A DNA stretch of 64,000 nt, from NCBI GenBank assembly GCA_944381375.1, contig CALWKX010000036.1, positions 448-64,447 on the forward strand. The letters run 5' to 3'. Positions 277-13,771 of this stretch are shown here, in pieces (positions within the stretch are counted from its first letter, which is position 1; every line of letters begins with the position of its first letter). Position numbers and translations under genes: made by a program. The DNA comes from an uncultured Lachnospiraceae bacterium (lineage in GTDB: Bacteria > Bacillota > Clostridia > Eubacteriales > Anaerofustaceae). A model generated the notes under the pieces. It was not told the DNA's origin, ran no database searches, and saw only the letters and a list, made by a program, of their open reading frames with translations.

Positions 277-293
277 TAATTTCCCCAAACCCA

Positions 294-322
294 TTGACAA
301 ATCGCTCGATTTTGCCCATAAT
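294..322 (+). promoter_or_regulatory. putative sigma-A type promoter of the XRE regulator gene
   Basis: TTGACA (294-299), a 17-nt spacer, then CATAAT (317-322), about 105 nt upstream of the ATG at 428. Confidence 0.35.
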
Positions 323-334
323 ATAGGTAAGATA

Positions 335-402
335 TTTGCCTAAGCATGTTATAAGCAAGTAAGGTTCCTCTGTCAATAGGTTTAGGCAAAATAATAGGCA
401 AA
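335..402 (+). promoter_or_regulatory. candidate operator: inverted repeat TTTGCCTAA / TTAGGCAAA plus a third TAGGCAAA half-site
   Basis: TTTGCCTAA at 335-343 is the exact reverse complement of TTAGGCAAA at 382-390. TAGGCAAA occurs again at 395-402. All three lie in the 5' leader of the XRE gene. Confidence 0.4.
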
Positions 403-427: not shown

Positions 428-853
428 ATGAAGTTTGGAGAAAAGGTAAGACTGCTGCGAAATGAAAAGAAGTTGTCCCAGACGGAACTGGGGGAAATGT
501 GTGGTCTGTCCCTGCGGACGATCCGCAATTATGAGGTGGGCGGACGCTATCCGAAGCAGCGCGAGGTTTACGCCAAACTTGCCGCCGCACTTGGATGCGA
601 GGTAAACTTCCTGCTCTCCGAAGATGAAGAATTTGTACTGCAAGCACAGCAGACCTATGGCTACAAAGGCGCGAGGGATGCAGAAGAATTAGTTGCCGGT
701 GTGTCTGCGCTCTTTGCTGGTGGTGAACTGTCCGAGAATGACAAGGATGCTGTGATGAGCGCCTTGCAGGATGCCTACTGGATGGCGAAAGAACGGAACA
801 AAGAAAAGTACACACCGAAGAAATATCGGAAACCAATAGAAGTTGAGGAATGA
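428..853 (+). CDS. XRE-family helix-turn-helix transcriptional regulator (141 aa)
   Basis: The N-terminus MKFGEKVRLLRNEKKLSQTELGEMCGLSLRTIRNYEVGGRYP is a textbook Cro/C1-type HTH. A GGTGAGG RBS sits before the ATG. Confidence 0.85.
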   Translation: MKFGEKVRLLRNEKKLSQTELGEMCGLSLRTIRNYEVGGRYPKQREVYAKLAAALGCEVNFLLSEDEEFVLQAQQTYGYKGARDAEELVAGVSALFAGGELSENDKDAVMSALQDAYWMAKERNKEKYTPKKYRKPIEVEE

Positions 854-917
854 TTTTTGTCAGGATAATTTCTGCATCAACTTTTATAGTAGTTTATGTA
901 GCAAGGAAGTGAAAGAC

Positions 918-3900
918 ATGATGTATACTCAGGATAAGCGACATGTTCCTGACCGGGTAGAATTAAAAGGACTCCTATCCGAGTTCCGAGATGCGCTTGA
1001 AGAAGAAATTGATAAGATCAAAAAAAGTGGTCAGTCTTCCACGCTACTCTTTGGTGGGCGCCAGATCGAAAGCCATGGTGCCGATCTCTGGTATCGATTT
1101 AATGTTGAATATGTTCCCTCCCTTCCCGCAGATACGCCCTGTAAGCTGGTGATCGGTAAGGATCAATTTGATGTTACCGTTATAAGCTTCGAAGAGAACT
1201 CTATTGTCGTCTCCACAAGAACGCCTCTGCCTGACACGATCGGCAAGGCCAGACTTGAAAATGGCGCTACAGTTCTGATGGAGCGGCTGATCAAGTGTAT
1301 CGAAGAGAATGCCGAAAAAGAAAATCCTGCAGGAAATCGTATGTTGTCTTCCGATGGCGGCGTTTACCCTGTAAAGAAAATCTTTGAGTATAGCGACTTG
1401 ACGCTGAATGCAGACAACACTCAAAGCCAAAACAATGCTATCGTATCTGCTCTTTCAAGCGACATCACCTACATATGGGGTCCGCCCGGCACGGGCAAGA
1501 CCACGGTCATTGGCCAAATTATCGACGAGCTATACAAGCACGATCGCGCTGTATTAGTTGTGTCTCATACCAACACGGCAGTTGACGGTGCCATCGAAAA
1601 AGCCGACAAAACATACTCCAAATCCAATCAGGATAATGACGCCAATTACCCGATTTTGAGAATTGGTACTCCTGCAAGGCCCTTGCCGGATCGGGTTTTG
1701 TTGGCACAGCATGTTGCCGCCTTAGGGAAAGAGCTTTACGAGCAAAAGGCGGCTCTTGAAAAACAGCAGGCTGAGTTACAACACCGCATCAACGAGATCC
1801 GTCCCTTGCTCGCCAAGGATGTTTGGTTGAAAGAAAGCAATCTGGATGTCATTCGGAAAGCACTTCAGAGTATTGCTGCACATGAGAAGGAAATCGCCGA
1901 GATTCAGCGCAGAATCGACGCCATCAATGTCTCCGTAGAGAGGGAAAAGGTGGCTCATCCTGAATACGCGAACTATCTGATCCTATCGAAAACGCTTAAA
2001 GCAAAAAAGAGCGATTACGATACCGTATGCGGTCAATTTTATAGAATTGAACAGGCTATTTCTGCGCTTCCGGATCAGATCCAAAGGGCGCAGGATGAGG
2101 TCAGAAAACACGCTCGATATACGGAGCTTCGCGCTCAAGAAGCAAAGTATATGTCCGTTTCCTTCCTTAGAGGTGAAATCAGCAAAGTTGATGCGCAGAT
2201 CAACCGCCTCCAAAGCTCAATCAGTGATTTGACTCGGCAGCAGACTGCGGCACAGCAAACAATCTCGGATTATGAGAAAAAGAGCTCTGTCGCAAAACTT
2301 TTTGCCGGCAAGAGTGCTGTTACTCAGGCACAGACTACTTTGGAGCGCGTCCGCCGAGAGATTCCAATCGCTAATGGCGACTTGCGCCGTCAACAAGACC
2401 TGAAACAAGAGTATTCTCAGCAACTGGAAAGCCTGTTGCTTTTGCAGGAGCAGATCCGTGCAGTCACTCCTTCGAAAACTCCGGAATACTGGAATGCTGA
2501 GGTAAATAAGCTGCAGGCCGAACTTTCTGCCGCACAAAAGGCTCTTCCGGAGCTGACCACCAGAAAAAACGCACTGCATGAAGAAGTTCGCGAACTGGAA
2601 CGACAACAGAGCCAGTCGAAGTCTTCGTTTGATGTTCTTAGCGAGTTGGGTAGAAAAGTCCGCCTGGAGCAGGACAAACTGGCTGAGGTTACGAAGCTGC
2701 GGGATAAGGAGAATAACGCTTGTTCTGAGCAACTTGAAAAAGAGCTCTCTTTTTGTATTACCTTCCTGTACAAGCCGACTTCTGAAGGAATCTCTCCCCT
2801 CTTTAATGAGCTTTCCAAGCTGTTTGCATCTGTAAAAGCTGAGATGGCTTCTGTTGATATGGATGCCATCATAAAAGAAAAAGAAGATGCGGATCAGCAG
2901 TTGGTCGAAATCTTCCGGCAGCTCAATGAGCTGAAAGAAAAAATGCAGGAGCTCGAAAAGCAGGCAATTATGAGCGCCAAGATTGTTGGTGCCACACTTG
3001 CGAAGTCTTATTTGAGCGAAACTCTGCGAGAGAGAAAGTTTGACACAGTAATCTTGGACGAGGCCTCCATGGCTTCTATTCCTGCACTTTGGTGTGCCAG
3101 CTACCTCGCTGAAAGCAGCATTGTAATTGTCGGTGACTTCCTGCAGTTACCGCCTATTGTTATGGCAGATACCCCTATGGCTCAAAAATGGTTGGGTAAG
3201 GATATCTTCTACCATAGCGGGATGCAGGAGCGGGCTCGGAACAAGGAAACCTGTCCTGAAAATTTCGTTATGCTCAATAATCAGTTCCGCATGGAGTCTG
3301 ATATTGCAGACATCGCAAACATGTATTACGGAGCATATGGTGGCCTTCTTTCGGATGATAACAACGATTTCAGAGTCAAGGATCGCGAGAAATTCTATAG
3401 TTGGTATTCTGGCAAAAGAACCAAGAGAAATGTTCACCTGATAGACACAGAGGGCCTCCATGCTTGGGTTACCGGTGTGCCTCAAGGAAAGAGCCATAGC
3501 CGGCTGAATTGTTTCTCAGCAGCCGTTTCTGTGGATCTTGCATTCAAGTTCTTGGAAAACAAACTCAAGGAACTCGATCCTGCTACTGCCGAACCGGAAA
3601 AAGAGGCTTCTGTGCTGATCGTCGCTCCGTATAAACCCCATGTCGCAAGGATCAATCAACTTGTAGAACTGGAGTATCACAATCGAGGTTTTAAAGAAAA
3701 CCTCAATTTCATTAGAGCCGGAACGATTCACAGTTTCCAAGGCAGCGAGGCCGATATCGTAATATTTGACCTAGTGATCGATGAACCGCATTGGAAGGCA
3801 AATCTGTTTATGACGGATAAGGAAGTCAATGAAGATCTGCGCAAGATGTTCAATGTGGCTGTCACGAGAGCTAAGTTCAAGCTGTATATCGTCGGCAATT

Positions 3901-4943
3901 TTGCATATTGCCAAAAACGAGCCAAGAATAACGCTCTGTCGGAGCTGCTGGACAAGCTCATCAAAAAGGATAGGCTTGTCAAAGTGGATGCCAAGACTTT
4001 GCTTCCTGAAATTGTGTTCGCACGGCAATCCGATTTTGCTTTTGATGGAAACCTTACAGGGAAACACATCGTTTGCCGAGAAGATGTCTTCAATGACTAC
4101 TTCATGGCTGATATCCATTCCTTCAAAAAGCGCCTGATTGTGTACTCAGCTTTTATGACGGAAGCACGCCTAAGCACACTTCTGCCGGCCTTCTCTGATG
4201 CCGTCCGCGCCGGAAAGCAGATCATTGTTGTTACAAAGGCTCTATCTGATCGTGGCAAATCCGAACTTGCGCAGTACCAAAAGTGTGAGAAAGAATTACG
4301 CGATATCGGCGTGAGTGTTCTTCACAAGAAGGGCATGCACGAAAAACTGATTTTTGTTGACAGCAATGCGGTTTGGATCGGCTCGTTGAATGCACTAAGT
4401 TTTACCGGTTTGACCGGCGAGGTTATGCAGCGGTATGCTGATCGTGAGCTGACTGCCGAATATGAAAAGCTTTTCGATATCGAGCACATCTGCAACGCAA
4501 TAGAAAACACATACGAACAGAAGTGCCCCATCTGCGGCGATGAAATGATCGTGAAAGAAAGCGATGAAGGCGGTATCTACTGGCAGTGCGTTGCCGGCGA
4601 TTATTCCAGAAATGTTGCTCAGCAATATCCGCTGGATGGCATTCTTCGTTGCAAGTGTGGAGCACCCTATGCGTTCGCAATGAAAAACGAGCCTCGTTGG
4701 GTGTGTTCCAAGGATTCACGGCATTATCAGAAGATGCGCGAGAGCGATCTTAGGCTGGAAAAGATGGCTGCTCTAATTCCTACAAAGGCCGCTCGTAGCC
4801 AAGTAAATAAGTATTTCTTTGCAAAAAAGAAAGAAATTGAGGCCAAAAAGAAAGCTACAGCACCTAAGAAGACATCCGCTACGAAGAAATCACTCAGTGC
4901 ATCTGAAGACGAGGACGATTCTAAGCAGATGAAAATGTTCTAA
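918..4943 (+). CDS. SF1 Upf1/Dna2-like helicase fused to a PLD-family (HKD) nuclease domain and C-terminal zinc ribbons; Mokosh type II (MkoC)-like
   Basis: Walker A GPPGTGKTT (nt 1479-1502). VILDEASM motif II (~3055-3066). FQGSEADIVIFDL and NVAVTRAK late helicase motifs. About 430 aa of Q/E/K/L-rich coiled coil lies between motifs I and II. HEKLIFVDSNAVWIGSLN fits HxK(x)4D(x)6GSxN (4338-4391). CPICG...WQC and CKCG...WVC cysteine pairs (4524-4725). Lys-rich tail. I prefer the ATG at 918 (AAGGAAG RBS 8 nt upstream) over the TTG at 843 in the ORF track. Confidence 0.8.
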   Translation: MMYTQDKRHVPDRVELKGLLSEFRDALEEEIDKIKKSGQSSTLLFGGRQIESHGADLWYRFNVEYVPSLPADTPCKLVIGKDQFDVTVISFEENSIVVSTRTPLPDTIGKARLENGATVLMERLIKCIEENAEKENPAGNRMLSSDGGVYPVKKIFEYSDLTLNADNTQSQNNAIVSALSSDITYIWGPPGTGKTTVIGQIIDELYKHDRAVLVVSHTNTAVDGAIEKADKTYSKSNQDNDANYPILRIGTPARPLPDRVLLAQHVAALGKELYEQKAALEKQQAELQHRINEIRPLLAKDVWLKESNLDVIRKALQSIAAHEKEIAEIQRRIDAINVSVEREKVAHPEYANYLILSKTLKAKKSDYDTVCGQFYRIEQAISALPDQIQRAQDEVRKHARYTELRAQEAKYMSVSFLRGEISKVDAQINRLQSSISDLTRQQTAAQQTISDYEKKSSVAKLFAGKSAVTQAQTTLERVRREIPIANGDLRRQQDLKQEYSQQLESLLLLQEQIRAVTPSKTPEYWNAEVNKLQAELSAAQKALPELTTRKNALHEEVRELERQQSQSKSSFDVLSELGRKVRLEQDKLAEVTKLRDKENNACSEQLEKELSFCITFLYKPTSEGISPLFNELSKLFASVKAEMASVDMDAIIKEKEDADQQLVEIFRQLNELKEKMQELEKQAIMSAKIVGATLAKSYLSETLRERKFDTVILDEASMASIPALWCASYLAESSIVIVGDFLQLPPIVMADTPMAQKWLGKDIFYHSGMQERARNKETCPENFVMLNNQFRMESDIADIANMYYGAYGGLLSDDNNDFRVKDREKFYSWYSGKRTKRNVHLIDTEGLHAWVTGVPQGKSHSRLNCFSAAVSVDLAFKFLENKLKELDPATAEPEKEASVLIVAPYKPHVARINQLVELEYHNRGFKENLNFIRAGTIHSFQGSEADIVIFDLVIDEPHWKANLFMTDKEVNEDLRKMFNVAVTRAKFKLYIVGNFAYCQKRAKNNALSELLDKLIKKDRLVKVDAKTLLPEIVFARQSDFAFDGNLTGKHIVCREDVFNDYFMADIHSFKKRLIVYSAFMTEARLSTLLPAFSDAVRAGKQIIVVTKALSDRGKSELAQYQKCEKELRDIGVSVLHKKGMHEKLIFVDSNAVWIGSLNALSFTGLTGEVMQRYADRELTAEYEKLFDIEHICNAIENTYEQKCPICGDEMIVKESDEGGIYWQCVAGDYSRNVAQQYPLDGILRCKCGAPYAFAMKNEPRWVCSKDSRHYQKMRESDLRLEKMAALIPTKAARSQVNKYFFAKKKEIEAKKKATAPKKTSATKKSLSASEDEDDSKQMKMF

Positions 4944-5051: not shown

Positions 5052-6242
5052 ATGATCTCAAACACAATTTACAGCAAAGGCAGGGACAACTTTAAGGGTT
5101 ACACCTTTTCTGCAAGAGAGTGGTCTGCTCCTACCATGGTGTCACCAAAAGAAATCCGTGAACGGATCGACAGCTTTGCTTTGTGCGGCCGTAAAATTAA
5201 GCGCATGCGTTTGATTGGCTTGAGCTATTTCCATACCCGTGACTGGGTTGAAGAAGCAGCTTATCGACAGGTCGAGCACCTGCCAGAAGAAGAGCGCCAG
5301 CGCAAATCCAATTATTCAACGATTGATCCCACCATGCAGTTTAGCCGATATGCTCAAATTGACGAACCTTTTCTGATTGAGTTCGATGATGGAGATATCT
5401 TTGAAGTCGATACTCCGCAGGATCCGGAATTCCGGATGAGCATGAACTGTATTCCTTGGTGGATCAAGGCCGGAACAAATCAACCTAATGTGGAAGCAGA
5501 TATTCTTTTCTCCCCTTGTGTCGGCCAGGAGATTGTTTCAGTCGAAGTCAACACACGGATAACAGACAAGGATCCGATGTTTTTCTGCGCTTTTAATGAG
5601 CCTCCTTATCAGAGCGAGCTTGTTTCAAATGTAACACTTCGTTTGAGAAATGGATTGGGTCTGCAGATCAGCCCGGACATTGATTACTGCGAGGTTGCGT
5701 GTGTTGATGTAAGCAACGAGTGGGTTAAAATCAGCTTTTCTGAACTAAAAGACGCTTTGTTCAACTGGGAGGACCTTCACGCTGATGAGGTTACCGGGTT
5801 TGAGGCGGAAAGTCCTATGTTGTTCTTCGGAAGAAAAGGAGCCGCATATACTGATACCCCATATATGACACTATCTTCAAGCGGCAAAGGCGATTCTTGC
5901 CTTCATGTCTATGTTGAAGATTTTCTTATACTTGATTGGAGCATTTCGCTTGCCATTGGGAGCTGGTTCGATGAGTACGGCGAGTATCATTTCAGCCATA
6001 AAGAGTGGAATGATCTCCTTGATGAGGCATGGCGAATCTTTGCTGCGGATAGTTTTGATGAATTGTTTGATGAGCTAATCGATCGGCAAGGAAAGGGCAA
6101 TTACATGATGTGGAAGCTCAATAGCCAAGGCGCATCTTTCTGGAAAGAGCGGGATAAATACAGAACACAGATCAAAGATATCCGAGAGTGGTCTGATTTG
6201 GTGCTTGGCCCCAACGACATGATGGATATCTACGGATTTTAG
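5052..6242 (+). CDS. hypothetical protein (396 aa), no recognisable domain
   Basis: Long ORF with a GAGGAGG RBS. The GC-rich codon usage matches its neighbours. There is no signal peptide, no TM segment and no motif I can name. Confidence 0.75.
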   Translation: MISNTIYSKGRDNFKGYTFSAREWSAPTMVSPKEIRERIDSFALCGRKIKRMRLIGLSYFHTRDWVEEAAYRQVEHLPEEERQRKSNYSTIDPTMQFSRYAQIDEPFLIEFDDGDIFEVDTPQDPEFRMSMNCIPWWIKAGTNQPNVEADILFSPCVGQEIVSVEVNTRITDKDPMFFCAFNEPPYQSELVSNVTLRLRNGLGLQISPDIDYCEVACVDVSNEWVKISFSELKDALFNWEDLHADEVTGFEAESPMLFFGRKGAAYTDTPYMTLSSSGKGDSCLHVYVEDFLILDWSISLAIGSWFDEYGEYHFSHKEWNDLLDEAWRIFAADSFDELFDELIDRQGKGNYMMWKLNSQGASFWKERDKYRTQIKDIREWSDLVLGPNDMMDIYGF

Positions 6243-6253
6243 GAGGTGTAAGT

Positions 6254-9200
6254 ATGGATCAGTTTACTATGATGGACATCCTGGGAAAAGCATTCGCTGA
6301 TGGCGAAATCGATGCACTGCGTCCTTTGATGGCAGCGGACTGTGACTATGCTTCCCAGTATGCAAACAAGTCCTTTTCGGGGGCATCTGAAATCCTGTCA
6401 AATATGGAGTCCGTCCATAAGAACATTGATGAAACCTGTGCTTATACTTACAAGGTCATAGAACTGGAATCTGTCCTGGCAAATGGCCTAACCCTTGCTG
6501 ATTTGGACAATCAAGCCGGAATGCATCCCTGCCGGTACGGCCTGCTCTTGTATCAGTATGGCTCTGATTATCCTGTTGCTGTTGTTGCCTGTATGATAGA
6601 CCTCTACGAGAAGTTCAGAAGCATATGGCTGTCTCGAGACACAAGCAAGTTCAATGAAACCTTTTATGGCGAAGAATTGGGACCCGATTCTCCCGATGAC
6701 CTTCCTTCTACAGTAGTGCCACTGACCACACATGATCGGCATGTCAACGAAATGAGAAGCTCATTTGCAGGTCAAAAGTGGGATAAGACTGTAGATACGG
6801 CTGATGGGATTTATATTTGGCGCAAAGCAGATGAATATGCCAAACAGTGGCTGCCCGAGCAGGGCTATAGCGTACTGGAGTCGCAGATCTTTGATGATTG
6901 CATCGGTTACCGGTGCAATAGAAAAGGCTATATTTACACGATTTTCATGTATGCCTACGGCCAAAAGAAAACTTCTCAGCTGGATGGTGATTTCTGCAGC
7001 AAGCTTGCCAAAGAACCCTTCGCCGAAAACAGCATCATCCTGATCCTCTACCTCAATGTCGATCGCTACATGGCCGGAACTGAGATCAAATATCGTGTAA
7101 GAAACTACTGCGGAAGTGATACTCACAGCCCGGAGTTTTGGCATCTTAAAGAAGTCAACAGCTCGTATCTGTTTGAATACTATCCTCGCAAAGAGATGAT
7201 TGATCAAACCTGGCAGTTCATGTACGCCTTCAACCGTGAAGATACGGACATCTATGACTGCATTATCACAGATGATAATCCATCCATTGAAGGAGATCCC
7301 AAATACTCCGGTGCATTTATGAACAGCGCCTTCTATGGGACGCTGCGGACGATGCATCGGGAATACGGTGATATGAAGTTGGGCTATGTCCGTTATAACG
7401 ATGTAGTTTACAGCTCTGTCCCCTACATTGAAGGTCTTGGCTTCTTCAGTTGGAGCTCCTTCCATGCCACCGACCGCATGCATAGCATGGTCCGTCACCC
7501 CTTTGACGGTGGTGATTGGAAAGTGGCAGAGTTTATTAAAACCGAGCAACGAGAACCAGATGATCTGTTCGCATATATTCCCAAACTCATAAACGCCGTC
7601 CCGCTTGCCCCCGTTCCCACAGAACGATTCGCCGTAAAGCTCTTTTTCGACAACGGCGAGTGCAAAAAGTATGTACTTCCTATTCCGACGGAGTCTGAGC
7701 ACGAGGAGGTTCTTTCCTATCGCGGTCATGTGTTTACCGATAACATCTGGGCATCCGTCTCTGTAATTCCTCGGCACGAAAGCAGATATAAAGGCTATCC
7801 CGAATGTGGCCCGGCAATTGTGTTCAAAAATGAGTTTCTAATCGCGGGAACTCGATGCTACATGGAGAGTGTGCCGTACTCTGAGCCGGAGTTGACAGAT
7901 GAGATCGTGTATGCCGATGAAAAGCACCAGATCCGGAAAATCTGGAAGTGGAATGTAAACTCTCTGTACGAAGACGGAGAAACCGGTCTATTGAAGGTCT
8001 TAATCAGCGGCCAGGCATTCAACTGGTACGGCAAGTCCGTGTTTGCTTCTATTGAGGGAAAACGACTGACCAGCCTGACCTTCGATATCATCGACAGTTT
8101 CCAAGAAGATATTGCTCGCGTTGCTATCAACGGCCATGGATATGGCTTCGTTGACAAGGACATGAAGTTTGTCATTCCTATGAAGTATGATCAAGCAGAT
8201 GATTTCAGAGAAGGCAAAGCAAAAGTACAGCTTGGAGATAAGTGGCTTTGTGTTGATCCAAATGGCTGTGAGCTTGAGATTGGTGGCAGAATTCGACAGG
8301 ATAATTATCAAGAAGTCGGCGATTATTCCGAAGGAATGTGCCGCGTATCTACGCTCAAGCTGCGCTTCATGGATTTGGCTTATCATTCGGATTATGATCA
8401 AATTGCGGGTACTTGGGGTTTTGTAAATGAATCTGGCGAGGAGGTTATTCCGCCCCAGTATATCTATGCTACTGACTTTGAAAATGGTATTGCTATCGTT
8501 GCAAAGGGCAAATGGACTATCGACCCTAAATGGGACAACAAGTATAATCAGGGCCGTTACTGGACGGAAGAGGAGCTCTGGGGTGCCATCGACAAGGACG
8601 GTAACGAGGTTATCCCCTTCATCTTTGATGAAATCAAGCACTTCTTCGATCGCTCCGATATGTTCATGGTCCATTATGGTGGCTGGAAAGACGGTCACTG
8701 GGGTGTCGTTGATTGCAAGGGTAACTGGCTCGCAGAACCAACCTTTGAAGGCTTCTCTTATGAAACCTGGAAGGACAGAATCCTGTTTTACGCTGAAGAT
8801 CCGGATGCAACGGGCGATGGTCTCCCCATGGGCATCTATGATCTGGCACAAAAGAAAGTCCTGTTTGAGCCCCAATTCCTTGATGTCACCTTCCGCGACA
8901 ACGGCGATATGGAAGTCGAGGTCTTCGATGAAGAACTCGGCCGGACGATTGAAAAGATCATTGACCCATCTGGCAAAGAGCGTTTCAAATCCATATATTC
9001 CTCGATCTATACCTGGCATGATCCATATGAGGTGGTTATCCGCGATAAGGACGGTACCAGACATGGTTTGATTGATAAGGAGGGCAACGAGATCCTCCCC
9101 TGCATCTATGATGTCCCTTGGAATGGCTTCTACCATGAACAGCAGAGAATTTGCTTCGTAGAAAACGGCAAACAAGGCATGAAAGACTACGATGGCAACA

Positions 9201-9433
9201 TCATCATTCCTGCTATCTACCATGAAATCCATGGGCGCAAGGATCCATATCTCACTGTCAGAGTTGGTGAAAAGGACAGCTACAAAGAAGGTCTTATCAC
9301 TTATGATGGTAAGACTGTTATCGAAGCAAATCACAGTCGCATCGGATGGTGCAGCGACCATAAGCATTTCTTCTGTTGTGCTGATGGACGCTGTGAGATG
9401 TATGTCGTAGAAGATTGCGCGGCTATGCCTTAA
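6254..9433 (+). CDS. WG-repeat (KWG-type) containing protein (1059 aa) with a ~600-aa N-terminal region of unknown function
   Basis: AGGAGG RBS, 11 nt after the upstream stop codon. The C-terminal ~440 aa (nt ~8110-9433) contains repeated units such as WGFVNESGEEVIPPQY, WGAIDKDGNEVIPFIFDEI, GLIDKEGNEILPCIYD and GMKDYDGNIIIPAIYHEI, which are typical of WG-containing repeats. Confidence 0.8.
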   Translation: MDQFTMMDILGKAFADGEIDALRPLMAADCDYASQYANKSFSGASEILSNMESVHKNIDETCAYTYKVIELESVLANGLTLADLDNQAGMHPCRYGLLLYQYGSDYPVAVVACMIDLYEKFRSIWLSRDTSKFNETFYGEELGPDSPDDLPSTVVPLTTHDRHVNEMRSSFAGQKWDKTVDTADGIYIWRKADEYAKQWLPEQGYSVLESQIFDDCIGYRCNRKGYIYTIFMYAYGQKKTSQLDGDFCSKLAKEPFAENSIILILYLNVDRYMAGTEIKYRVRNYCGSDTHSPEFWHLKEVNSSYLFEYYPRKEMIDQTWQFMYAFNREDTDIYDCIITDDNPSIEGDPKYSGAFMNSAFYGTLRTMHREYGDMKLGYVRYNDVVYSSVPYIEGLGFFSWSSFHATDRMHSMVRHPFDGGDWKVAEFIKTEQREPDDLFAYIPKLINAVPLAPVPTERFAVKLFFDNGECKKYVLPIPTESEHEEVLSYRGHVFTDNIWASVSVIPRHESRYKGYPECGPAIVFKNEFLIAGTRCYMESVPYSEPELTDEIVYADEKHQIRKIWKWNVNSLYEDGETGLLKVLISGQAFNWYGKSVFASIEGKRLTSLTFDIIDSFQEDIARVAINGHGYGFVDKDMKFVIPMKYDQADDFREGKAKVQLGDKWLCVDPNGCELEIGGRIRQDNYQEVGDYSEGMCRVSTLKLRFMDLAYHSDYDQIAGTWGFVNESGEEVIPPQYIYATDFENGIAIVAKGKWTIDPKWDNKYNQGRYWTEEELWGAIDKDGNEVIPFIFDEIKHFFDRSDMFMVHYGGWKDGHWGVVDCKGNWLAEPTFEGFSYETWKDRILFYAEDPDATGDGLPMGIYDLAQKKVLFEPQFLDVTFRDNGDMEVEVFDEELGRTIEKIIDPSGKERFKSIYSSIYTWHDPYEVVIRDKDGTRHGLIDKEGNEILPCIYDVPWNGFYHEQQRICFVENGKQGMKDYDGNIIIPAIYHEIHGRKDPYLTVRVGEKDSYKEGLITYDGKTVIEANHSRIGWCSDHKHFFCCADGRCEMYVVEDCAAMP

Positions 9434-9583
9434 GTTTATGTCGCGATAAAGGTCGAAAACGGCAGCTTTTCTGCGTTCTAAGCAAGAATCAGAGTATAGG
9501 TAATACGCAACCCCTATTTCTTTCGATTTTGCCCTTAATTAGTCTACACGCAAGAAGAAACCCGCAACTCTCCCATAAACGGC

Positions 9584-9617
9584 AAAAGGGTATGCTTTGA
9601 TGTGCATACCCTTTTTG
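9584..9617 (+). terminator. rho-independent terminator at the right edge of the GC-rich segment
   Basis: AAGGGTATGC (9586-9595), an 8-nt loop, GCATACCCTT (9604-9613), then a T-run. Confidence 0.7.
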
Positions 9618-9813
9618 TCAGCAACCCTTGCATGGCAACTGCCATAATTCTTATTTCGTAAAACCTGTTTTATGAACAGTTACCCGAAAGAAGTCTTTTT
9701 TTTAATACATATATAACTATGAACGTACTGATTTCAAATGAAATCTTATCTGAAAATACATGCGTTACTGAAAAAAATAATGTAATGATTTGAGTTGATC
9801 GCAGTGGTTATTA

Positions 9814-9841
9814 TTGACATATGTCATTAACTGCGTATAAT
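9814..9841 (+). promoter_or_regulatory. putative sigma-A promoter overlapping a 12-bp perfect palindrome
   Basis: TTGACA (9814-9819), a 16-nt spacer, then TATAAT (9836-9841). The palindrome TGACATATGTCA (9815-9826) overlaps the -35. A second TTGACATATG occurs at 9858-9867. Confidence 0.35.
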
Positions 9842-9895
9842 AATAACTGCATGGTATTTGACATATGCTATATATATTATTGCGGAGGTATTAAT

Positions 9896-10288
9896 ATGAA
9901 GGTAGCTGTAACATATGAAAATGGGAACGTATATCAGCATTTCGGACATACAGAGAATTTCAAATTTTATGAAATTGAAGAAGGTAAAGTACTATCATCT
10001 AATGTCGTAAATACTGCAGGTAGCGGCCACGGAGCGCTTGCAGGATTTTTGAAAGAAAATTCAGTAGATACTTTGATATGCGGCGGAATAGGCGCAGGCG
10101 CTCAGCAAGCATTAAGTCAGGCAGGTATAAAATATTATGCAGGTGTTCAAGGTAATGCAGATGAGGCGGTTTCAAATTTTTTGAATAACACACTTGAATA
10201 TGATCCTGACGCTGTCTGTTCACACCATGAACATCATCATGATGATTCCTGTCATTCAAATTGTCATAATGGCAAATGTTCTGAATAA
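9896..10288 (+). CDS. NifB/NifX-family (dinitrogenase Fe-Mo cofactor biosynthesis domain) protein with a His/Cys-rich tail
   Basis: MKVAVTYENGNVYQHFGHTENFKFYEI...LICGGIGAGAQ is the typical NifX/NifB-like small-protein pattern. GGAGG RBS at 9884-9888. The tail is CSHHEHHHDDSCHSNCHNGKCSE. I prefer the internal ATG at 9896 to the ORF-track start at 9821. Confidence 0.75.
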   Translation: MKVAVTYENGNVYQHFGHTENFKFYEIEEGKVLSSNVVNTAGSGHGALAGFLKENSVDTLICGGIGAGAQQALSQAGIKYYAGVQGNADEAVSNFLNNTLEYDPDAVCSHHEHHHDDSCHSNCHNGKCSE

Positions 10289-10313
10289 AAAAAGCGCTAT
10301 CGCGCTTTTTTTA
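10287..10313. terminator. bidirectional terminator between convergent genes
   Basis: AAAAAGCGC, loop TATC, GCGCTTTTT, flanked by A- and T-runs. Confidence 0.7.
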
Positions 10314-10328
10314 TATCTTGTTTTATAG

Positions 10329-11252: not shown

Positions 11253-12509
11253 ATGAAATTTAATCCATTTAAAGAGAAGCCCGTTGATATAGAATCCACT
11301 ATTCAGGATTGGTCGAAGCTTTATGAAAAAGCATATGATAAAAATGAAGTGGATCCCTATACCAGAACACGCATAATTTTGATGAACGGCACGGAATTCG
11401 AATCCGTATGGTTTATGCATCAATTTTCGCGCAACTGCAACAATAATGATTTGCGACGGCAAATAGCTTTAGTAAGACGAATAGAACAGCAGCAACAGAA
11501 AAAAATAGGAAGCTTGAAACCTTTAGACGAATCGATATTGGAACAAACGATAGGATATGAACAGCTTGCCGTCGATTTAACAGCCGCCCTTGCTCAAATG
11601 ATGAAGGATGAATATTCAAGAAAGTCATTTGATTTTGCATTATTGGAAGATTTTGATCATTTATATCGTTATGCTGATTTGCTTGAAATGGAACATGGTA
11701 TAAAAGCGGAAAAACTTGTTGGGAAATATACCGAAATCATGCCGGCTCGTCCCACTATAGCTCACCATAGGCATCCGTTTGATTCTATAAAGCAACATAT
11801 ATGTGCTGAAAGCGCAGATCCAATGACAAAACTTGCTGTGAATATTATTACGGCTGCGGAACAGCAAACAATGAATTATTATATGAACATCGCCCCTTTT
11901 TATACTTCTGATATAGGTCGTAAGCTTTACAGCGAGATTGGTATGATCGAAGAACAGCACGTCACGCAGTACGGAAGCTTGAAAGATACGGAATGTTCGT
12001 GGCTGGAAAACCTTCTTATGCACGAGTATACAGAATGTTACCTGTATTATTCGTGTTATGAAAGTGAAACCGATGATAATGTGAGAAAAGTATGGGAATA
12101 TTCCTTAATGCAGGAAATTGCTCATTTGCATAAGGCTGCCGAACTTCTGAAAGAGTATGAAAAGAAAGAATGGCAGCTGGTGATTCCTCAAGGAGAATTT
12201 CCCAAGCCTTTGGTGCTTAAAGAAAATATTGACTACGTAAGAAATGTCATCGAAAATTCTATTACAATGACTGCTGACGGTGATGATTTTTCGGAATTAT
12301 GTGAACTGCCTGAAACAGCAAAATTTTATTCTTATCAGAATAAGGTAAACCCCAACGTTGATATAGTTGCAAGCCATCTTATTATTGATCAATATATAGA
12401 TCAAAATGGCAAGGATTACCGTTTTCAGGTCGCTGAGCATCCAATTGAGGCATTGCGAAACAGAAAATGCGATAATACTGCAATTGCAAGAGTAGTTGAT
12501 GAAAAGTAA
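11253..12509 (+). CDS. ferritin-like (di-iron carboxylate type) domain protein, 418 aa
   Basis: AAGGAG RBS. The E / ExxH / E / ExxH spacing (NGTEFES, LLEMEHG, AAEQQT, IEEQHV) suggests a four-helix-bundle di-iron site. Confidence 0.6.
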   Translation: MKFNPFKEKPVDIESTIQDWSKLYEKAYDKNEVDPYTRTRIILMNGTEFESVWFMHQFSRNCNNNDLRRQIALVRRIEQQQQKKIGSLKPLDESILEQTIGYEQLAVDLTAALAQMMKDEYSRKSFDFALLEDFDHLYRYADLLEMEHGIKAEKLVGKYTEIMPARPTIAHHRHPFDSIKQHICAESADPMTKLAVNIITAAEQQTMNYYMNIAPFYTSDIGRKLYSEIGMIEEQHVTQYGSLKDTECSWLENLLMHEYTECYLYYSCYESETDDNVRKVWEYSLMQEIAHLHKAAELLKEYEKKEWQLVIPQGEFPKPLVLKENIDYVRNVIENSITMTADGDDFSELCELPETAKFYSYQNKVNPNVDIVASHLIIDQYIDQNGKDYRFQVAEHPIEALRNRKCDNTAIARVVDEK

Positions 12510-12516
12510 TACTATA

Positions 12517-12551
12517 AAAAACAAAGCGAAAATCATTTTCGCTTTGTTTTT
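12517..12551. terminator. bidirectional terminator between convergent genes
   Basis: AAAACAAAGCGAAAA / TTTTCGCTTTGTTTT stem with flanking A- and T-runs. Confidence 0.75.
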
Positions 12552-12583
12552 ATAAGATATACGCAAGATTGTATAACAGACAG

Positions 12584-13276
12584 CTAATCTTGTTTTGAAA
12601 ATGCACTGTCGAAAAGATCAGGCCGGCGTTTTTTCGTCTCGGCAAGGCTTTGTTCATATTTATATTGCTGAATTTTAGCATGATTGCCGGAAAGAAGTAT
12701 ATCCGGCACCTTAAGGCCCATAAATTCGTATGGTCTGGTATATTGAGCATGCTCTAAAAGACCATTTTCGAATGATTCATCAGCATAGCTTTCTTCATTG
12801 CCAAGTACGCCGGGGATGTAACGGGATACTGCGTCTATAAAGCACATGGCCGCTAAATGTCCGCCCGTCAGAATATAATCTCCCATGGATAATTCATCTG
12901 TTACGCATAAATCCAATGCTCTTTGGTCTATACCTTCAAAATGCCCGCACAAAAGAATCGTTTCGCTGTATTTTATATATTCTTTTGCTATCGAAGTCGT
13001 GAAAGGCCGCCCTTTAGGTGAGAAAAATATCACAGGGATATCTTTGTTTTGCCTGACGGCGGTGATACAGTCGTAAACAGGTTGTGCCATCATTATCATA
13101 CCTGCTCCTCCTCCGTAGGGATAGTCGTCTACACAGCCGTGTTTATTCAAGGTATAATCTCTGATGTTGACACTGTTAATGCTGAGAATTCCGGATTTTA
13201 CTCCTCGCCCCACAACACCGGTTTTTGCATATTCATCTATAAGTTCTGGGTATAATGTCAAAACATTAAAAATCAT
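12584..13276 (-). CDS. trmD: tRNA (guanine37-N1)-methyltransferase
   Basis: MIFNVLTLYPELI..., YPYGGGAGMIM and ILTGGHLAA are characteristic TrmD motifs. There is a 4-nt overlap with rimM. Confidence 0.95.
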   Translation of the reverse strand: MIFNVLTLYPELIDEYAKTGVVGRGVKSGILSINSVNIRDYTLNKHGCVDDYPYGGGAGMIMMAQPVYDCITAVRQNKDIPVIFFSPKGRPFTTSIAKEYIKYSETILLCGHFEGIDQRALDLCVTDELSMGDYILTGGHLAAMCFIDAVSRYIPGVLGNEESYADESFENGLLEHAQYTRPYEFMGLKVPDILLSGNHAKIQQYKYEQSLAETKKRRPDLFDSAFSKQD

Positions 13277-13767
13277 GATTTCACGCCTTTCGACATATCC
13301 GCCTTGATATATCCCATCTCAATATTAATTTCCGATATGTTCTCATCAAGAAAAGCAAGCAGTATTGTTTCGCAGTCATTTTTGAACTCCAAAACGTCCG
13401 TATTAGCCGTGGAAAAAACATCGTTTAATTTATATATTTTTTCGGAGGAAGTATCGTATGCCTTTAATCCCTTTAGATCTTCAATAAAAAATTCATTTTC
13501 TTGAAGTTCAACGGCGTCTTCACGCCTTATTTCAATATATTTCCCTTTAAGTATTTCCGCTGCGTTTCTGTCATTTATTGTTTGAGCAGTAATCAGCACA
13601 GCATTCTTGTGTTTTCTTGCTCCGGTAATTTTGAATTCCGTTCCTTCGCATATGAAATAATTAATATCGTAAAATCTGTCAGGATCATCAGTTATCGGAA
13701 ATACTTTAATCTCTCCTTTAATGCCGTGCGCTCCTATAATTTTTCCTATGACTATATTAGGTTTCAT
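13273..13767 (-). CDS. rimM: 16S rRNA processing protein RimM
   Basis: The IVIGKIIGAHGIKGEIKVFPITDDPDRF N-terminal motif, plus its position directly upstream of trmD. Confidence 0.9.
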   Translation of the reverse strand: MKPNIVIGKIIGAHGIKGEIKVFPITDDPDRFYDINYFICEGTEFKITGARKHKNAVLITAQTINDRNAAEILKGKYIEIRREDAVELQENEFFIEDLKGLKAYDTSSEKIYKLNDVFSTANTDVLEFKNDCETILLAFLDENISEINIEMGYIKADMSKGVKS

Positions 13768-13771
13768 ATAA

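What the first reader, a model, noticed from the sequence alone, without database searches (positions are those of the whole stretch)
918..4943. Mokosh type II-like single-polypeptide helicase-PLD nuclease with an unusually long coiled-coil insert and zinc-ribbon tail
One ~1341-aa protein combines six parts. (a) An N-terminal beta-rich domain. (b) A Upf1/Dna2-type SF1 helicase core (GPPGTGKTT at nt 1479-1502, DEAS at ~3055, FQGSEADIVIFDL, NVAVTRAK). (c) About 430 residues of heptad-like Q/E/K/L/A-rich sequence between motifs I and II (nt ~1700-3000). (d) A complete HxK(x)4D(x)6GSxN phospholipase-D/Nuc-type nuclease motif (HEKLIFVDSNAVWIGSLN, nt 4338-4391). (e) Two CxxC...C pairs resembling topoisomerase-type zinc ribbons (4524-4725). 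(f) A Lys-rich tail. A COG1112-type helicase plus a PLD nuclease is the defining content of the Mokosh anti-phage system, whose type II form is a single gene. The huge coiled-coil insertion, the zinc ribbons and the upstream XRE regulator are not part of the description I know. This may therefore be a divergent or new subtype. It sits in a foreign-composition island, which fits a defence role.
Basis: partly seen in the sequence, partly recalled or inferred. Interest (0 to 1): 0.72.

Follow-up and report, generated by a model that had tools for sequence, protein, structure and literature searches.

The report
Mokosh-like helicase-nuclease with coiled-coil arm
This gene encodes a large single protein that joins an RNA/DNA-unwinding motor, a long rod-like arm, a DNA/RNA-cutting domain and two zinc fingers; it is most likely an untested relative of the bacterial anti-virus system Mokosh, and it rides on a small mobile element that spreads among human-gut bacteria.

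Summary
ORF 918-4943 (+) encodes an intact 1341-aa protein, and every motif cited is at or within a few bases of the stated coordinates. It has six parts:
- a Upf1-type stalk and 1B barrel;
- an SF1B helicase core;
- an all-helical heptad insert (aa 262-686), probably a hairpin arm;
- a single-HKD Nuc/Zucchini-type PLD nuclease;
- two zinc ribbons;
- a disordered Lys-rich tail.

Catalytic and metal-binding residues are invariant in 37 sequences down to 49% identity.

The domain content matches type II Mokosh, but the protein is not a YjhR-type MkoC. It scores 141 bits over about a quarter of that profile, against about 1400 bits end to end for true MkoC, and its helicase core is nearer MkoA.

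The long insert is not unique, because true MkoC also has about 400 aa at that site. It is longer here (526 aa), strongly heptad and fixed in length. The zinc ribbons are absent from the two true MkoC examined.

The XRE gene is conserved only in close relatives. The two downstream genes are a separable module. The cassette is cargo of an element of about 11.6 kb with a serine recombinase, seen in at least 13 flanking contexts.

Verdict: a new variant of a known kind. A defence role is inferred, not shown.

The parts
277..393 (+). Promoter-like site (TTGACA-17-CATAAT, 294-322) bracketed by inverted repeats 277-299/371-393 and 335-350/375-390. These are candidate operators for the XRE protein.
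   Evidence: Consensus matches only; function is inferred.
428..853 (+). XRE/HTH_3 regulator, 141 aa. Its best PADLOC hit is CapH.
   Evidence: Pfam HTH_3 E 1.1e-10. PADLOC capH E 1.6e-10. Conserved at 92-94% in gut contigs and at 68% upstream of P0018. Only the C-terminal 45 aa are conserved upstream of P0042, and it is absent upstream of P0010, P0040, P0095, P0097 and P0111.
918..4943 (+). Helicase-PLD-zinc-ribbon gene, 1341 aa, intact.
972..1310 (+). Upf1-family stalk helix (aa 19-37), six-strand 1B beta-barrel (aa 41-114) and second stalk helix (aa 116-131).
   Evidence: AF2 secondary structure with pLDDT 73-94. Foldseek TM 0.66-0.72, normalised to target, against whole IGHMBP2 and UPF1 helicase cores that include 1B. 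Many invariant residues. No Pfam or PADLOC model matches.
1422..1700 (+). RecA1 N-terminal part, with Walker A GPPGTGKT at nt 1479-1502.
   Evidence: G188 to K194 invariant.
1701..2975 (+). All-helical heptad insert, aa 262-686, at the position of Upf1 domain 1C. The lineage-specific part is about aa 290-655. A conserved break (Y452, K455, F462; aa 454-465, nt about 2277-2312) is the presumed hairpin apex.
   Evidence: AF2 helices of up to 93 residues with pLDDT 77-89. Heptad z = 9.6. Both ends are retained in helicase-only relatives. Length is fixed: 63 of 117 homologues have a spacing of exactly 526. The antiparallel geometry is inferred.
2976..3197 (+). RecA1 C-terminal part, with motif II DEAS at nt 3057-3068.
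   Evidence: D714, E715, A716, S717 invariant.
3228..3968 (+). RecA2 (AAA_12), with FQGSEADIV and motif VI VAVTRAK.
   Evidence: Q941, G942, R984 invariant.
4062..4478 (+). Single-HKD PLD nuclease domain of Nuc/NucT/Zucchini type. The HKD motif is at nt 4338-4391.
   Evidence: PLDc_2 at 32-36 bits. AF2 pLDDT above 90. Foldseek gives NucT 6ehi E 2.8e-7, Zucchini 4ggk and Nuc 1byr, with TMt 0.57-0.64. H1141, K1143, D1148, G1155, S1156 and N1158 are invariant.
4524..4724 (+). Two zinc-ribbon modules: C1203, C1206 and C1224 (fourth ligand unclear), and C1245, C1247, C1263 and H1269.
   Evidence: All six Cys are invariant and H1269 is at least 90% conserved. AF2 shows beta-hairpins with pLDDT 86-95. 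Zn_ribbon_recom scores 32 bits, above cut-off. Zn_ribbon_Top1 scores 18 bits, below cut-off.
4785..4940 (+). C-terminal helix (aa 1290-1314) and disordered Lys-rich tail (aa about 1315-1341).
   Evidence: pLDDT 34-41 for the tail. The sequence is variable among homologues.
5052..6242 (+). Gene 2, 396 aa, no recognisable family. It is linked to the helicase gene only in the sub-clade of at least 69% identity.
   Evidence: no hits. (linkage). (L107 has it without the helicase).
6254..9433 (+). Gene 3, 1059 aa. The C-terminal half carries WG_beta_rep repeats. It starts 11 bp after gene 2.
   Evidence: Pfam WG_beta_rep E 1.6e-44. The 11-bp spacing is conserved in L071, L073 and L077.
9434..9706 (.). 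Right end of the mobile element. Similarity to about 25 gut-metagenome copies stops at about window 9690-9706.
   Evidence: Housekeeping genes (trmD, rimM and others) follow at about 35% GC.

Best explanation
The gene encodes a stand-alone nucleic-acid-targeting immunity protein. It works like Mokosh but belongs to a separate, unnamed family.

Proposed mechanism:
1. The Upf1-like SF1B motor, with its 1B barrel and stalk clamping the strand, loads on single-stranded nucleic acid of an invading phage or plasmid and translocates 5' to 3'. The substrate could be ssDNA replication intermediates or RNA.
2. The two C-terminal zinc ribbons and the basic tail add single-strand binding.
3. The Nuc/Zucchini-type PLD domain cuts the strand. 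Each polypeptide carries only one HKD motif, and solved Nuc-type enzymes build their active site from two HKD motifs across a dimer. Cleavage should therefore need two PLD domains to meet.
4. The insert is proposed to be an antiparallel coiled-coil arm about 25 nm long that either holds or brings two protomers together, or acts as a sensing and docking surface. This would gate the nuclease.
5. The XRE protein probably represses the operon from the promoter at 294-322.

Shown here: domain identities, conservation of catalytic residues, the helical heptad nature and fixed length of the insert, mobility, and patchy distribution.

Inferred: the defence role, the substrate, the polarity, the need for dimerisation, the hairpin geometry and the function of the arm.
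For: Domains:
- Pfam AAA_11, AAA_12 and PLDc_2.
- Foldseek places the whole protein with senataxin, IGHMBP2, UPF1, Dna2, Aquarius, ZNFX1 and Sen1 at probability 1.00.
- Foldseek places the PLD domain with NucT, Zucchini and Nuc.
- Walker A, DEAS, the motif VI Arg, H-K-D-GSxN and the zinc ligands are invariant in 37 sequences down to 49% identity.

Kinship with Mokosh:
- PADLOC MkoA 204 bits and MkoC 141 bits.
- hhalign against true MkoC gives probability 97.6% from motif II to the end of the PLD.

Experimental anchor:
- E. coli Mokosh II cleaves only ssDNA in vitro and protects only against an ssDNA phage. Nuclease active-site mutations abolish activity in these systems (10.1101/2025.07.10.664194).

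Context typical of defence genes:
- The gene is cargo of a serine-recombinase element found in at least 13 flanking contexts.
- Homologues lie next to type I R-M plus GmrSD (P0095), directly after a complete type I R-M system (L037), and inside an integrase element (P0097).
- Other homologues sit as single genes dropped between unrelated housekeeping genes (P0040 and P0111).
- Some copies carry internal deletions.

The arm:
- Heptad z = 9.6.
- All-helical with helices up to 93 residues and pLDDT 77-89.
- A single conserved break lies near the midpoint.
- Helix breaks pair at similar distances from that break: 409-413 with 516-521, and 307-308 with 615-624.
- Length falls into tight classes despite poor sequence conservation.

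Published precedent: CoCoNuT CnuH helicases have an OB/stalk module and a large helical insertion after Walker A (PMC11090510).
Against: - There is no experimental phenotype for any member of this family.
- Only 2 of about 12 examined neighbourhoods hold recognised defence genes, so guilt by association is modest.
- The protein fails full-length membership of MkoC.
- E. coli Mokosh II is monomeric in solution, so obligate dimerisation is not established even for the nearest characterised relative.
pTM is only 0.57.
- The fourth ligand of the first zinc ribbon is not obvious.
- The substrate is unresolved. Upf1, IGHMBP2 and Zucchini act on RNA, whereas EcMokosh II and NucT act on ssDNA.
Confidence: 0.6

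Rival explanations
1. The working unit is a three- or four-gene system: the XRE regulator, the helicase-PLD protein, the 396-aa protein and the roughly 1000-aa WG-repeat protein. The two downstream proteins would sense infection or dock on the coiled-coil arm and license the nuclease.
For: - The same gene order occurs in the window, L003, L071-L074, L077-L078 and about 30 gut contigs.
- Identities of the three proteins fall together: 70/57/65%, 81/77/75% and 83/85/86%.
- No convincing terminator was found between the helicase gene and gene 2.
Against: - Homologues at 71%, 57%, 56% and 53% identity lack both downstream genes, as do all relatives at 23-36% identity.
- L107 carries genes 2 and 3 behind a sigma-factor gene with no helicase.
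- The gap between the helicase gene and gene 2 varies from 70 to 416 bp, while the gap between genes 2 and 3 is fixed at 11 bp.
- Co-divergence is also expected from shared carriage on one element.
Confidence: 0.15
2. The protein serves the mobile element rather than the host. It could process the excised element's DNA, help its replication or transfer, or attack competing elements or the host's own nucleic acids.
For: - A large serine recombinase lies divergently next to the gene in three separate lineages: L093 and the window clade, P0010, and P0095.
- In L077 the neighbours are ParB, a DNA methylase and ArdA, which are typical of conjugative elements.
Against: - Full-length, catalytically intact homologues sit alone between housekeeping genes with no mobility genes within 8 kb (P0040 on 24 contigs, and P0111).
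- Serine-recombinase elements need no helicase-nuclease to move (established knowledge of large serine recombinases).
- Inter-element competition is itself a form of defence.
Confidence: 0.12
3. It is a housekeeping DNA-repair or RNA-surveillance enzyme, a bacterial analogue of Dna2 or Upf1-SMG6, that merely happens to lie in an island.
For: The best structural matches are eukaryotic housekeeping helicases, including Dna2, which also combines a nuclease with an SF1B helicase.
Against: - The neighbourhood is not conserved: there are at least 13 flanking contexts for near-identical copies.
- The GC content is foreign.
- Copies carrying deletions are common.
- The best library hits are defence models.
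- It scores far below the cut-offs of every NCBIfam equivalog, for example IGHMBP2 at 129 against 349 bits and RecD2 at 49 against 500 bits.
Confidence: 0.06

Closest known systems
Mokosh type II (MkoC; E. coli YjhR family; PADLOC PDLC03924)
   Same: - It is a single polypeptide with an SF1 helicase followed by a C-terminal single-HKD PLD domain, in the same order.
- The region from motif II to the end of the PLD is alignable (hhalign probability 97.6%, E 3.6e-12; blastp 22% identity, E 1e-11).
- True MkoC also has about 400 residues between Walker A and motif II.
   Different: - It scores 141 bits over about a quarter of the profile, against 1387-1414 bits end to end for true MkoC.
- The N-terminal region is unrelated (165 aa of stalk and 1B here, about 270 aa in MkoC) and does not align.
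- The insert is 526 aa rather than 402-406, is not alignable, and has much stronger heptad periodicity (z 9.6 against 2.5).
- The two true MkoC proteins examined end right after the PLD, with no zinc ribbons and no basic tail.
Mokosh type I helicase MkoA (PADLOC PDLC03920/03921)
   Same: This is the best-scoring defence model for the helicase core (204 bits, E 1e-60). The Walker A and motif II pieces map to adjacent profile positions 618-736 and 773-1097.
   Different: - MkoA has about 600 further N-terminal residues that are not matched.
- It has no long insert: the spacing is about 120 aa in MkoA-like loci.
- It has no fused PLD and works with a separate MkoB, which is absent from the window cassette. 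No other cassette protein gave a PLD hit in Pfam or PADLOC.
CoCoNuT CnuH helicases (PMC11090510)
   Same: They are UPF1-like SF1 helicases in predicted defence systems. They have an OB/stalk module and a large, partly coiled-coil helical insertion after Walker A. Some are fused or linked to Vsr or PLD nucleases.
   Different: - CoCoNuTs are defined by McrB/McrC-type CnuB and CnuC partners. Neither neighbouring gene in the cassette has any such domain.
- Direct sequence comparison with CnuH was not made.
Nuc / NucT / Zucchini (PLD6) single-HKD nucleases
   Same: These are the best structural matches of the PLD domain (E 2.8e-7 to 1.2e-6, TMt 0.57-0.64). The domain has one HKD motif.
   Different: They are small stand-alone proteins of 150-200 aa that form dimers. 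Here the domain is tethered to a helicase, an arm and zinc ribbons.
SMC / Rad50-type coiled-coil arms
   Same: They have long heptad helices that must fold back on themselves, length conserved more than sequence, and a conserved motif at the presumed tip. The PDB hits are weak and driven by composition.
   Different: The arm is inserted into a RecA-type SF1 helicase domain, not an ABC ATPase head. There is no zinc hook or hinge domain. This is analogy only.

Membership tests
Mokosh (system definition: COG1112/Upf1-like helicase plus PLD nuclease) | SF1 Upf1-like (COG1112-type) helicase with intact ATPase motifs | tested here: met
   AAA_11 and AAA_12. Foldseek matches to UPF1, IGHMBP2 and SETX. 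Walker A, DEAS and motif VI are invariant.
Mokosh (system definition: COG1112/Upf1-like helicase plus PLD nuclease) | PLD-family nuclease with an intact HxK(x)4D...GSxN motif | tested here: met
   PLDc_2 above cut-off. Foldseek matches to NucT, Zucchini and Nuc. The motif is invariant.
Mokosh (system definition: COG1112/Upf1-like helicase plus PLD nuclease) | Protects cells against phage | not testable with these tools
   No experiment was possible, and no member of this family was found in the literature searched.
Mokosh type II, MkoC/YjhR family | Both activities in one gene, with the helicase N-terminal to the PLD | tested here: met
Mokosh type II, MkoC/YjhR family | Full-length match to the MkoC profile (PADLOC PDLC03924) | tested here: not met
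   141 bits, covering profile positions about 252-330 and 823-1125 of 1136. Positive controls L005 and L006 give 1387 and 1414 bits over 1-1135. The N-domain, insert and tail have no match.
Mokosh type II, MkoC/YjhR family | Would be called mokosh_II by PADLOC or DefenseFinder under their own coverage rules | not testable with these tools
   Neither pipeline's system rules, nor the DefenseFinder models, are available here.
Mokosh type I (MkoA plus MkoB) | Separate MkoB PLD gene next to the helicase gene | tested here: not met
   Neighbouring genes have no PLD or MkoB hit.
CoCoNuT (type II/III) | McrB-like GTPase (CnuB) and McrC-like (CnuC) genes in the operon | tested here: not met
   Genes 2 and 3 have no AAA_5/McrB or DUF2357 hits. 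Gene 2 has no hit at all, and gene 3 hits only WG_beta_rep.
Upf1-like SF1B helicases (structural clade) | Stalk helices and 1B beta-barrel N-terminal to RecA1, plus a 1C insertion within RecA1 | tested here: met
   AF2 gives helix 19-37, six strands at 41-114 and helix 116-131, with the insert between motifs I and II. TMt is 0.66-0.72 against IGHMBP2 and UPF1 cores.
Nuc-type single-HKD PLD nucleases | Active site formed by two HKD motifs across a homodimer | not testable with these tools
   Only one HKD motif occurs per chain. No multimer prediction or coordinates were available.
Topoisomerase I-type C4 zinc ribbon (PF01396) | Match above Pfam's gathering score | tested here: not met
   18.4 bits against a cut-off of 32. 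The second ribbon passes Zn_ribbon_recom instead, at 32.4 against 25.3 bits.

The most novel reading that the evidence does not exclude
This would be a previously unrecognised class of immune helicase-nuclease in which an SMC/Rad50-like antiparallel coiled-coil arm has been grafted onto a Upf1-type motor. The arm would act as a mechanical gate. Through its conserved tip (Y452, K455, F462) or by zipping along its length, it would bring two single-HKD PLD domains together only when two motors meet on foreign single-stranded nucleic acid, so that the nuclease is assembled on the target. Arm length would be tuned in discrete classes (spacings of about 300, 416, 430 and 526-538 residues). The linked 396-aa and WG-repeat proteins could be arm-binding sensors in one sub-clade.
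Probability: 0.2. Interest if true: 0.78.

Novelty: new variant of a known kind. Interest (0 to 1): 0.55.

Why it matters
- **Mokosh mechanism.** Mokosh is among the commoner recently described defence systems, and no paper on its structure or mechanism turned up in the library searched. Its parts resemble the animal piRNA proteins MOV10L1 and Zucchini. This family shows that the helicase-plus-PLD combination exists in at least one further, large lineage (958 representative clusters for the PLD plus zinc-ribbon module). That lineage is built on an MkoA-like core and has its own accessories.
- **Annotation gap.** Current profiles cover only about a quarter of such proteins, so they may be unlabelled or mislabelled in gut Bacillota genomes.
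- **A handle on nuclease control.** The long arm of conserved length, combined with a nuclease domain that should need pairing, gives a concrete and testable idea for how such single-protein systems keep their nuclease off until needed.
- **Spread in the gut.** Carriage on a compact serine-recombinase element found at 97-99% identity in many human-gut contexts is relevant to phage-bacteria dynamics in the microbiome.

Tried and rejected
1. **Exact look-up.** The window protein has no exact entry in the contig index, so close homologues were used instead.
2. **Full-length YjhR from E. coli chromosomes.** K-12 and the other strains examined hold only pseudogene remnants. Intact MkoC was found on Arsenophonus and Vibrio plasmids instead.
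3. **Genome-contig scan.** That still proved useful for comparing architectures.
4. **Phage carriage.** There were no viral-contig hits and one weak phage-record hit, so this is not a phage gene.
5. **PLuB system.** The NCBIfam hit of 100 bits is far below the 999-bit cut-off, and the library holds no literature on it. Rejected.
6. **Other defence families.** Upx, Nhi, Hna and Hachiman use PD-(D/E)xK nucleases or SF2 helicases, so they were rejected as relatives. DrmC and MkoB hit the PLD only weakly (26-30 bits). The LmuB, SMC, JetC and EmrA hits come from coiled-coil composition.
7. **3-D coordinates.** Not exposed to scripts, so arm geometry could not be measured. A script that assumed one file per locus failed.
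8. **Genes 2 and 3.** No hits in Pfam (apart from the WG repeats), PADLOC, NCBIfam, PHROGs or PDB sequences.
9. **A dedicated Mokosh structure or mechanism paper.** None was found in the library.

Full report
**1. The observation**

The + strand carries an uninterrupted ORF from 843 to 4943. The ATG at 918 lies 8 nt after AGGAAG. It gives 1341 aa, the same length as the 98%-identical database protein P0001.

- GPPGTGKT at nt 1479.
- DEAS at nt 3057.
- HEKLIFVDSNAVWIGSLN at nt 4338-4391.
- CPIC at nt 4524.

Pfam finds AAA_11 split across residues 169-749, AAA_12 at 771-994 and PLDc_2 at 1066-1187. When the tail is scanned alone, it also finds Zn_ribbon_recom above threshold and Zn_ribbon_Top1 below threshold. 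The second Cys cluster is CxC...C...H rather than CxxC...C. GC is 0.45-0.48 over the first 9 kb and about 0.29-0.44 in the rest of the window.

**2. Anatomy**

An AlphaFold2 model of residues 1-1200, built on 37 homologues, has mean pLDDT 83.5. A model of residues 1020-1341 has mean pLDDT 84.9 and pTM 0.76.

*N-terminal domain.* It is a helix (19-37), a six-strand barrel (41-114) and a second helix (116-131). This is the stalk plus 1B arrangement of Upf1-like SF1B helicases. Foldseek matches the whole model to senataxin, IGHMBP2, UPF1, Dna2, Aquarius, ZNFX1 and Sen1 at probability 1.00. TM-scores of 0.66-0.72, normalised to the complete IGHMBP2 and UPF1 cores, mean the barrel superposes too. 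Sequence searches against PDB agree.

*Insert.* Residues 262-686 are modelled as helix only, in segments of up to 93 residues, at pLDDT 77-89. Hydrophobic 3.5-residue periodicity is 9.6 standard deviations above shuffles, and absent from the other domains. The insert sits where Upf1 has its small 1C domain.

*PLD domain.* Its best structural matches are the single-HKD nucleases NucT, Zucchini/PLD6 and Nuc.

*Tail.* After the PLD come two confident small beta-ribbon modules, a 25-residue helix and a disordered Lys-rich end.

*Conservation.* In 37 sequences down to 49% identity, these are invariant: Walker A, DEAS, the motif VI arginine, H1141, K1143, D1148, G1155, S1156, N1158 and six cysteines. 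H1269 is at least 90% conserved. The N-domain is also well conserved. The insert is poorly conserved except at a few positions.

**3. Is the insert an arm?**

- An insertion in a globular domain must leave and return at nearby points. A chain of long helices must therefore fold back on itself.
- The only low-confidence break, at residues 454-465, lies near the midpoint and coincides with the best-conserved motif in the insert (Y452, K455, F462).
- Helix breaks occur at similar distances on either side of that point: 409-413 with 516-521, and 307-308 with 615-624.
- Helicase-only relatives keep both ends (about 261-290 and 655-700) and lack the middle.
- Length is conserved much better than sequence. 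Among 117 homologues of at least 51% identity, the Walker A to motif II spacing is 514-532 in all but one, and exactly 526 in 63. More distant family members cluster at 428-435 and 521-549. Still more distant helicase-PLD-CxxC proteins have spacings of about 300 or 416.

This behaviour fits a two-stranded antiparallel arm of roughly 180-200 residues per strand, or about 25 nm.

**4. Relation to Mokosh**

PADLOC's best hits are MkoA (204 bits, helicase core only) and MkoC (141 bits). To calibrate these, I retrieved intact YjhR-type MkoC proteins from Arsenophonus and Vibrio plasmids, because E. coli chromosomes hold only remnants.

- The two true MkoC proteins score 1387 and 1414 bits end to end on the MkoC profile.
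- The window protein covers only the Walker A patch and the RecA2-PLD region of that profile.
- Profile-profile alignment of the family against true MkoC spans only motif II to the end of the PLD (probability 97.6%).
- Pairwise identity is 22%.

The protein therefore shares Mokosh's defining domain content and type II's single-gene layout. It is not a member of the MkoC family, and its helicase core is nearer MkoA.

True MkoC also has 402-406 residues between Walker A and DEAG. A long insertion at this site is therefore not new to Mokosh II. Here it is longer and unalignable, and its heptad signal is far stronger (z 9.6 against 2.5). On the MkoA profile the two flanks of the insert map almost next to each other, and MkoA-like loci have a spacing of about 120 aa. 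The two true MkoC proteins end immediately after the PLD, so the zinc ribbons and tail appear specific to this lineage.

A published precedent for a UPF1-like defence helicase with an OB/stalk module and a large helical insertion after Walker A is CnuH of the CoCoNuT systems (PMC11090510). The McrBC-type partners that define CoCoNuTs are absent here.

**5. How widespread is it?**

- At least 566 proteins match at E ≤ 1e-5. The best 120 are mostly full-length (1300-1410 aa) and unnamed, apart from generic labels.
- The PLD plus zinc-ribbon module alone finds 958 representative clusters at E ≤ 0.001 and 138 at E ≤ 1e-30. In essentially all full-length hits it sits at the C-terminus of proteins of about 1165-1540 aa.
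- Shorter relatives with the same HEK...D...W.GSLN signature and a CxxC after the PLD occur in Planctomycetota, Bacillota, Hydrogenedentota and Actinomycetota. Helicase-only versions of about 600-770 aa occur in Bacillus and others.
- It is not a phage gene.

**6. Context**

*Downstream genes.* In the window and in homologues of at least 69% identity, the gene is followed by a 396-aa protein with no recognisable family. A WG-repeat protein of about 950-1060 aa starts 11 bp after it. Both are absent next to homologues at 71, 57, 56 and 53% identity and next to all distant relatives. One gut contig carries the pair behind a sigma-factor gene with no helicase. I therefore treat them as a separable module.

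*XRE gene.* It is conserved only in the nearest relatives.

*Mobile element.* Thirty-four human-gut metagenome contigs carry the cassette or parts of it at 92-99% identity.
- Similarity to the window ends about 255-273 nt after gene 3, at window 9690-9706.
- On the left, similarity among six loci ends just beyond a divergent 577-aa large serine recombinase with Resolvase, Recombinase, Zn_ribbon_recom and DUF4368 domains.
- The element is about 11.6 kb. The window begins about 75 bp short of the recombinase gene.
- Among 23 contigs with informative right flanks there are at least 13 different contexts, and none matches the window's housekeeping flank of trmD, rimM and others.
- Some copies carry internal deletions of the helicase gene.

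*Other neighbourhoods.* Homologues lie next to a serine recombinase with type I R-M and GmrSD (P0095), inside a tyrosine-integrase element (P0097), directly after a complete type I R-M system (L037), or alone between housekeeping genes (P0040 and P0111).

**7. Mechanism**

The best-supported reading is a stand-alone helicase-driven nuclease directed against invading single-stranded nucleic acid.

The nearest characterised system is E. coli Mokosh II. It is a monomer that cleaves only ssDNA in vitro and protects only against an ssDNA phage (10.1101/2025.07.10.664194). The zinc ribbons and basic tail would add strand binding.

Nuc-type PLD enzymes complete their active site across a dimer (established knowledge of Nuc and Zucchini). 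This protein has one HKD motif. I therefore infer that nuclease activity needs two protomers, and that the arm controls that pairing or serves as a sensing surface. These steps are inference. RNA remains a possible substrate, given the Upf1, IGHMBP2 and Zucchini affinities.

The rivals are a multi-gene system, an element-selfish function and a housekeeping enzyme. They are weighed in their own section of this report.

**8. Verdict**

- The thing is a new variant of a known kind: a large, unnamed, Mokosh-like helicase-PLD family with a long coiled-coil arm and zinc-ribbon tail, here carried by a small serine-recombinase element that circulates in human-gut bacteria.
- Its defence role is plausible (about 0.6) but untested.

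Noticed in passing
window 5052-6242 and 6254-9433: This is a two-gene module: a 396-aa protein with no detectable family, and a 1059-aa protein whose C-terminal half carries WG_beta_rep repeats. The genes are always 11 bp apart. The pair travels with the helicase gene in one sub-clade, but in L107 it sits behind an ECF-type sigma-factor gene without the helicase. Function is unknown.
   Followed up: partly
L093:3070-14655 (window equivalent: left of position 1 to about 9706): A compact mobile element of about 11.6 kb carries one DUF4368-type large serine recombinase and four cargo genes. It is present at 97-99% identity in many human-gut metagenome contigs, with at least 13 different right-hand flanks. 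The window starts about 75 bp from the recombinase gene start.
   Followed up: partly
L089, L091, L102-L105 (gut metagenome loci): Otherwise near-identical copies of the cassette carry large internal deletions of the helicase-PLD gene. Residues about 1-850 or 1-590 are missing, or only 1-648 are kept. This suggests recurrent inactivation.
   Followed up: no
window 277-393 and 428-853: Inverted repeats (277-299/371-393 and 335-350/375-390, sharing TTTGCCTAA/TTAGGCAAA) bracket the near-consensus promoter at 294-322, upstream of the XRE gene. The XRE protein's best PADLOC hit is CapH. Only its C-terminal 45 residues or so are conserved upstream of the 70%-identity homologue P0042.
   Followed up: partly
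P0095 residues 1316-1391 (L075:8001-12233): A 57%-identity homologue of 1410 aa has an extra C-terminal stretch that matches PADLOC's homing-endonuclease (HEase) model at 30 bits. The tail is therefore a site of domain accretion.
   Followed up: no
L008:1630-7724 and 12260-14248: The Bacillota relative of about 1036 aa is flanked by three large ORFs (1332, 653 and 663 aa) with no Pfam family at all. This could be an uncharacterised defence-island neighbourhood.
   Followed up: no
L001:10016-11032 (E. coli K-12 yjhR) and L002, L004: In the four E. coli K-12-type loci inspected, the Mokosh II gene yjhR is only a C-terminal remnant (helicase C-terminal part and PLD), often next to IS elements. 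DNA similar to the fragment occurs in 1730 of 5426 complete E. coli genomes.
   Followed up: partly
window 9814-9841 and 10285-10314: A perfect sigma-70 consensus promoter (TTGACA-16-TATAAT) and a strong 13-bp-stem terminator frame the small Nitro_FeMo-Co-domain gene at 9821-10288, immediately right of the element.
   Followed up: no
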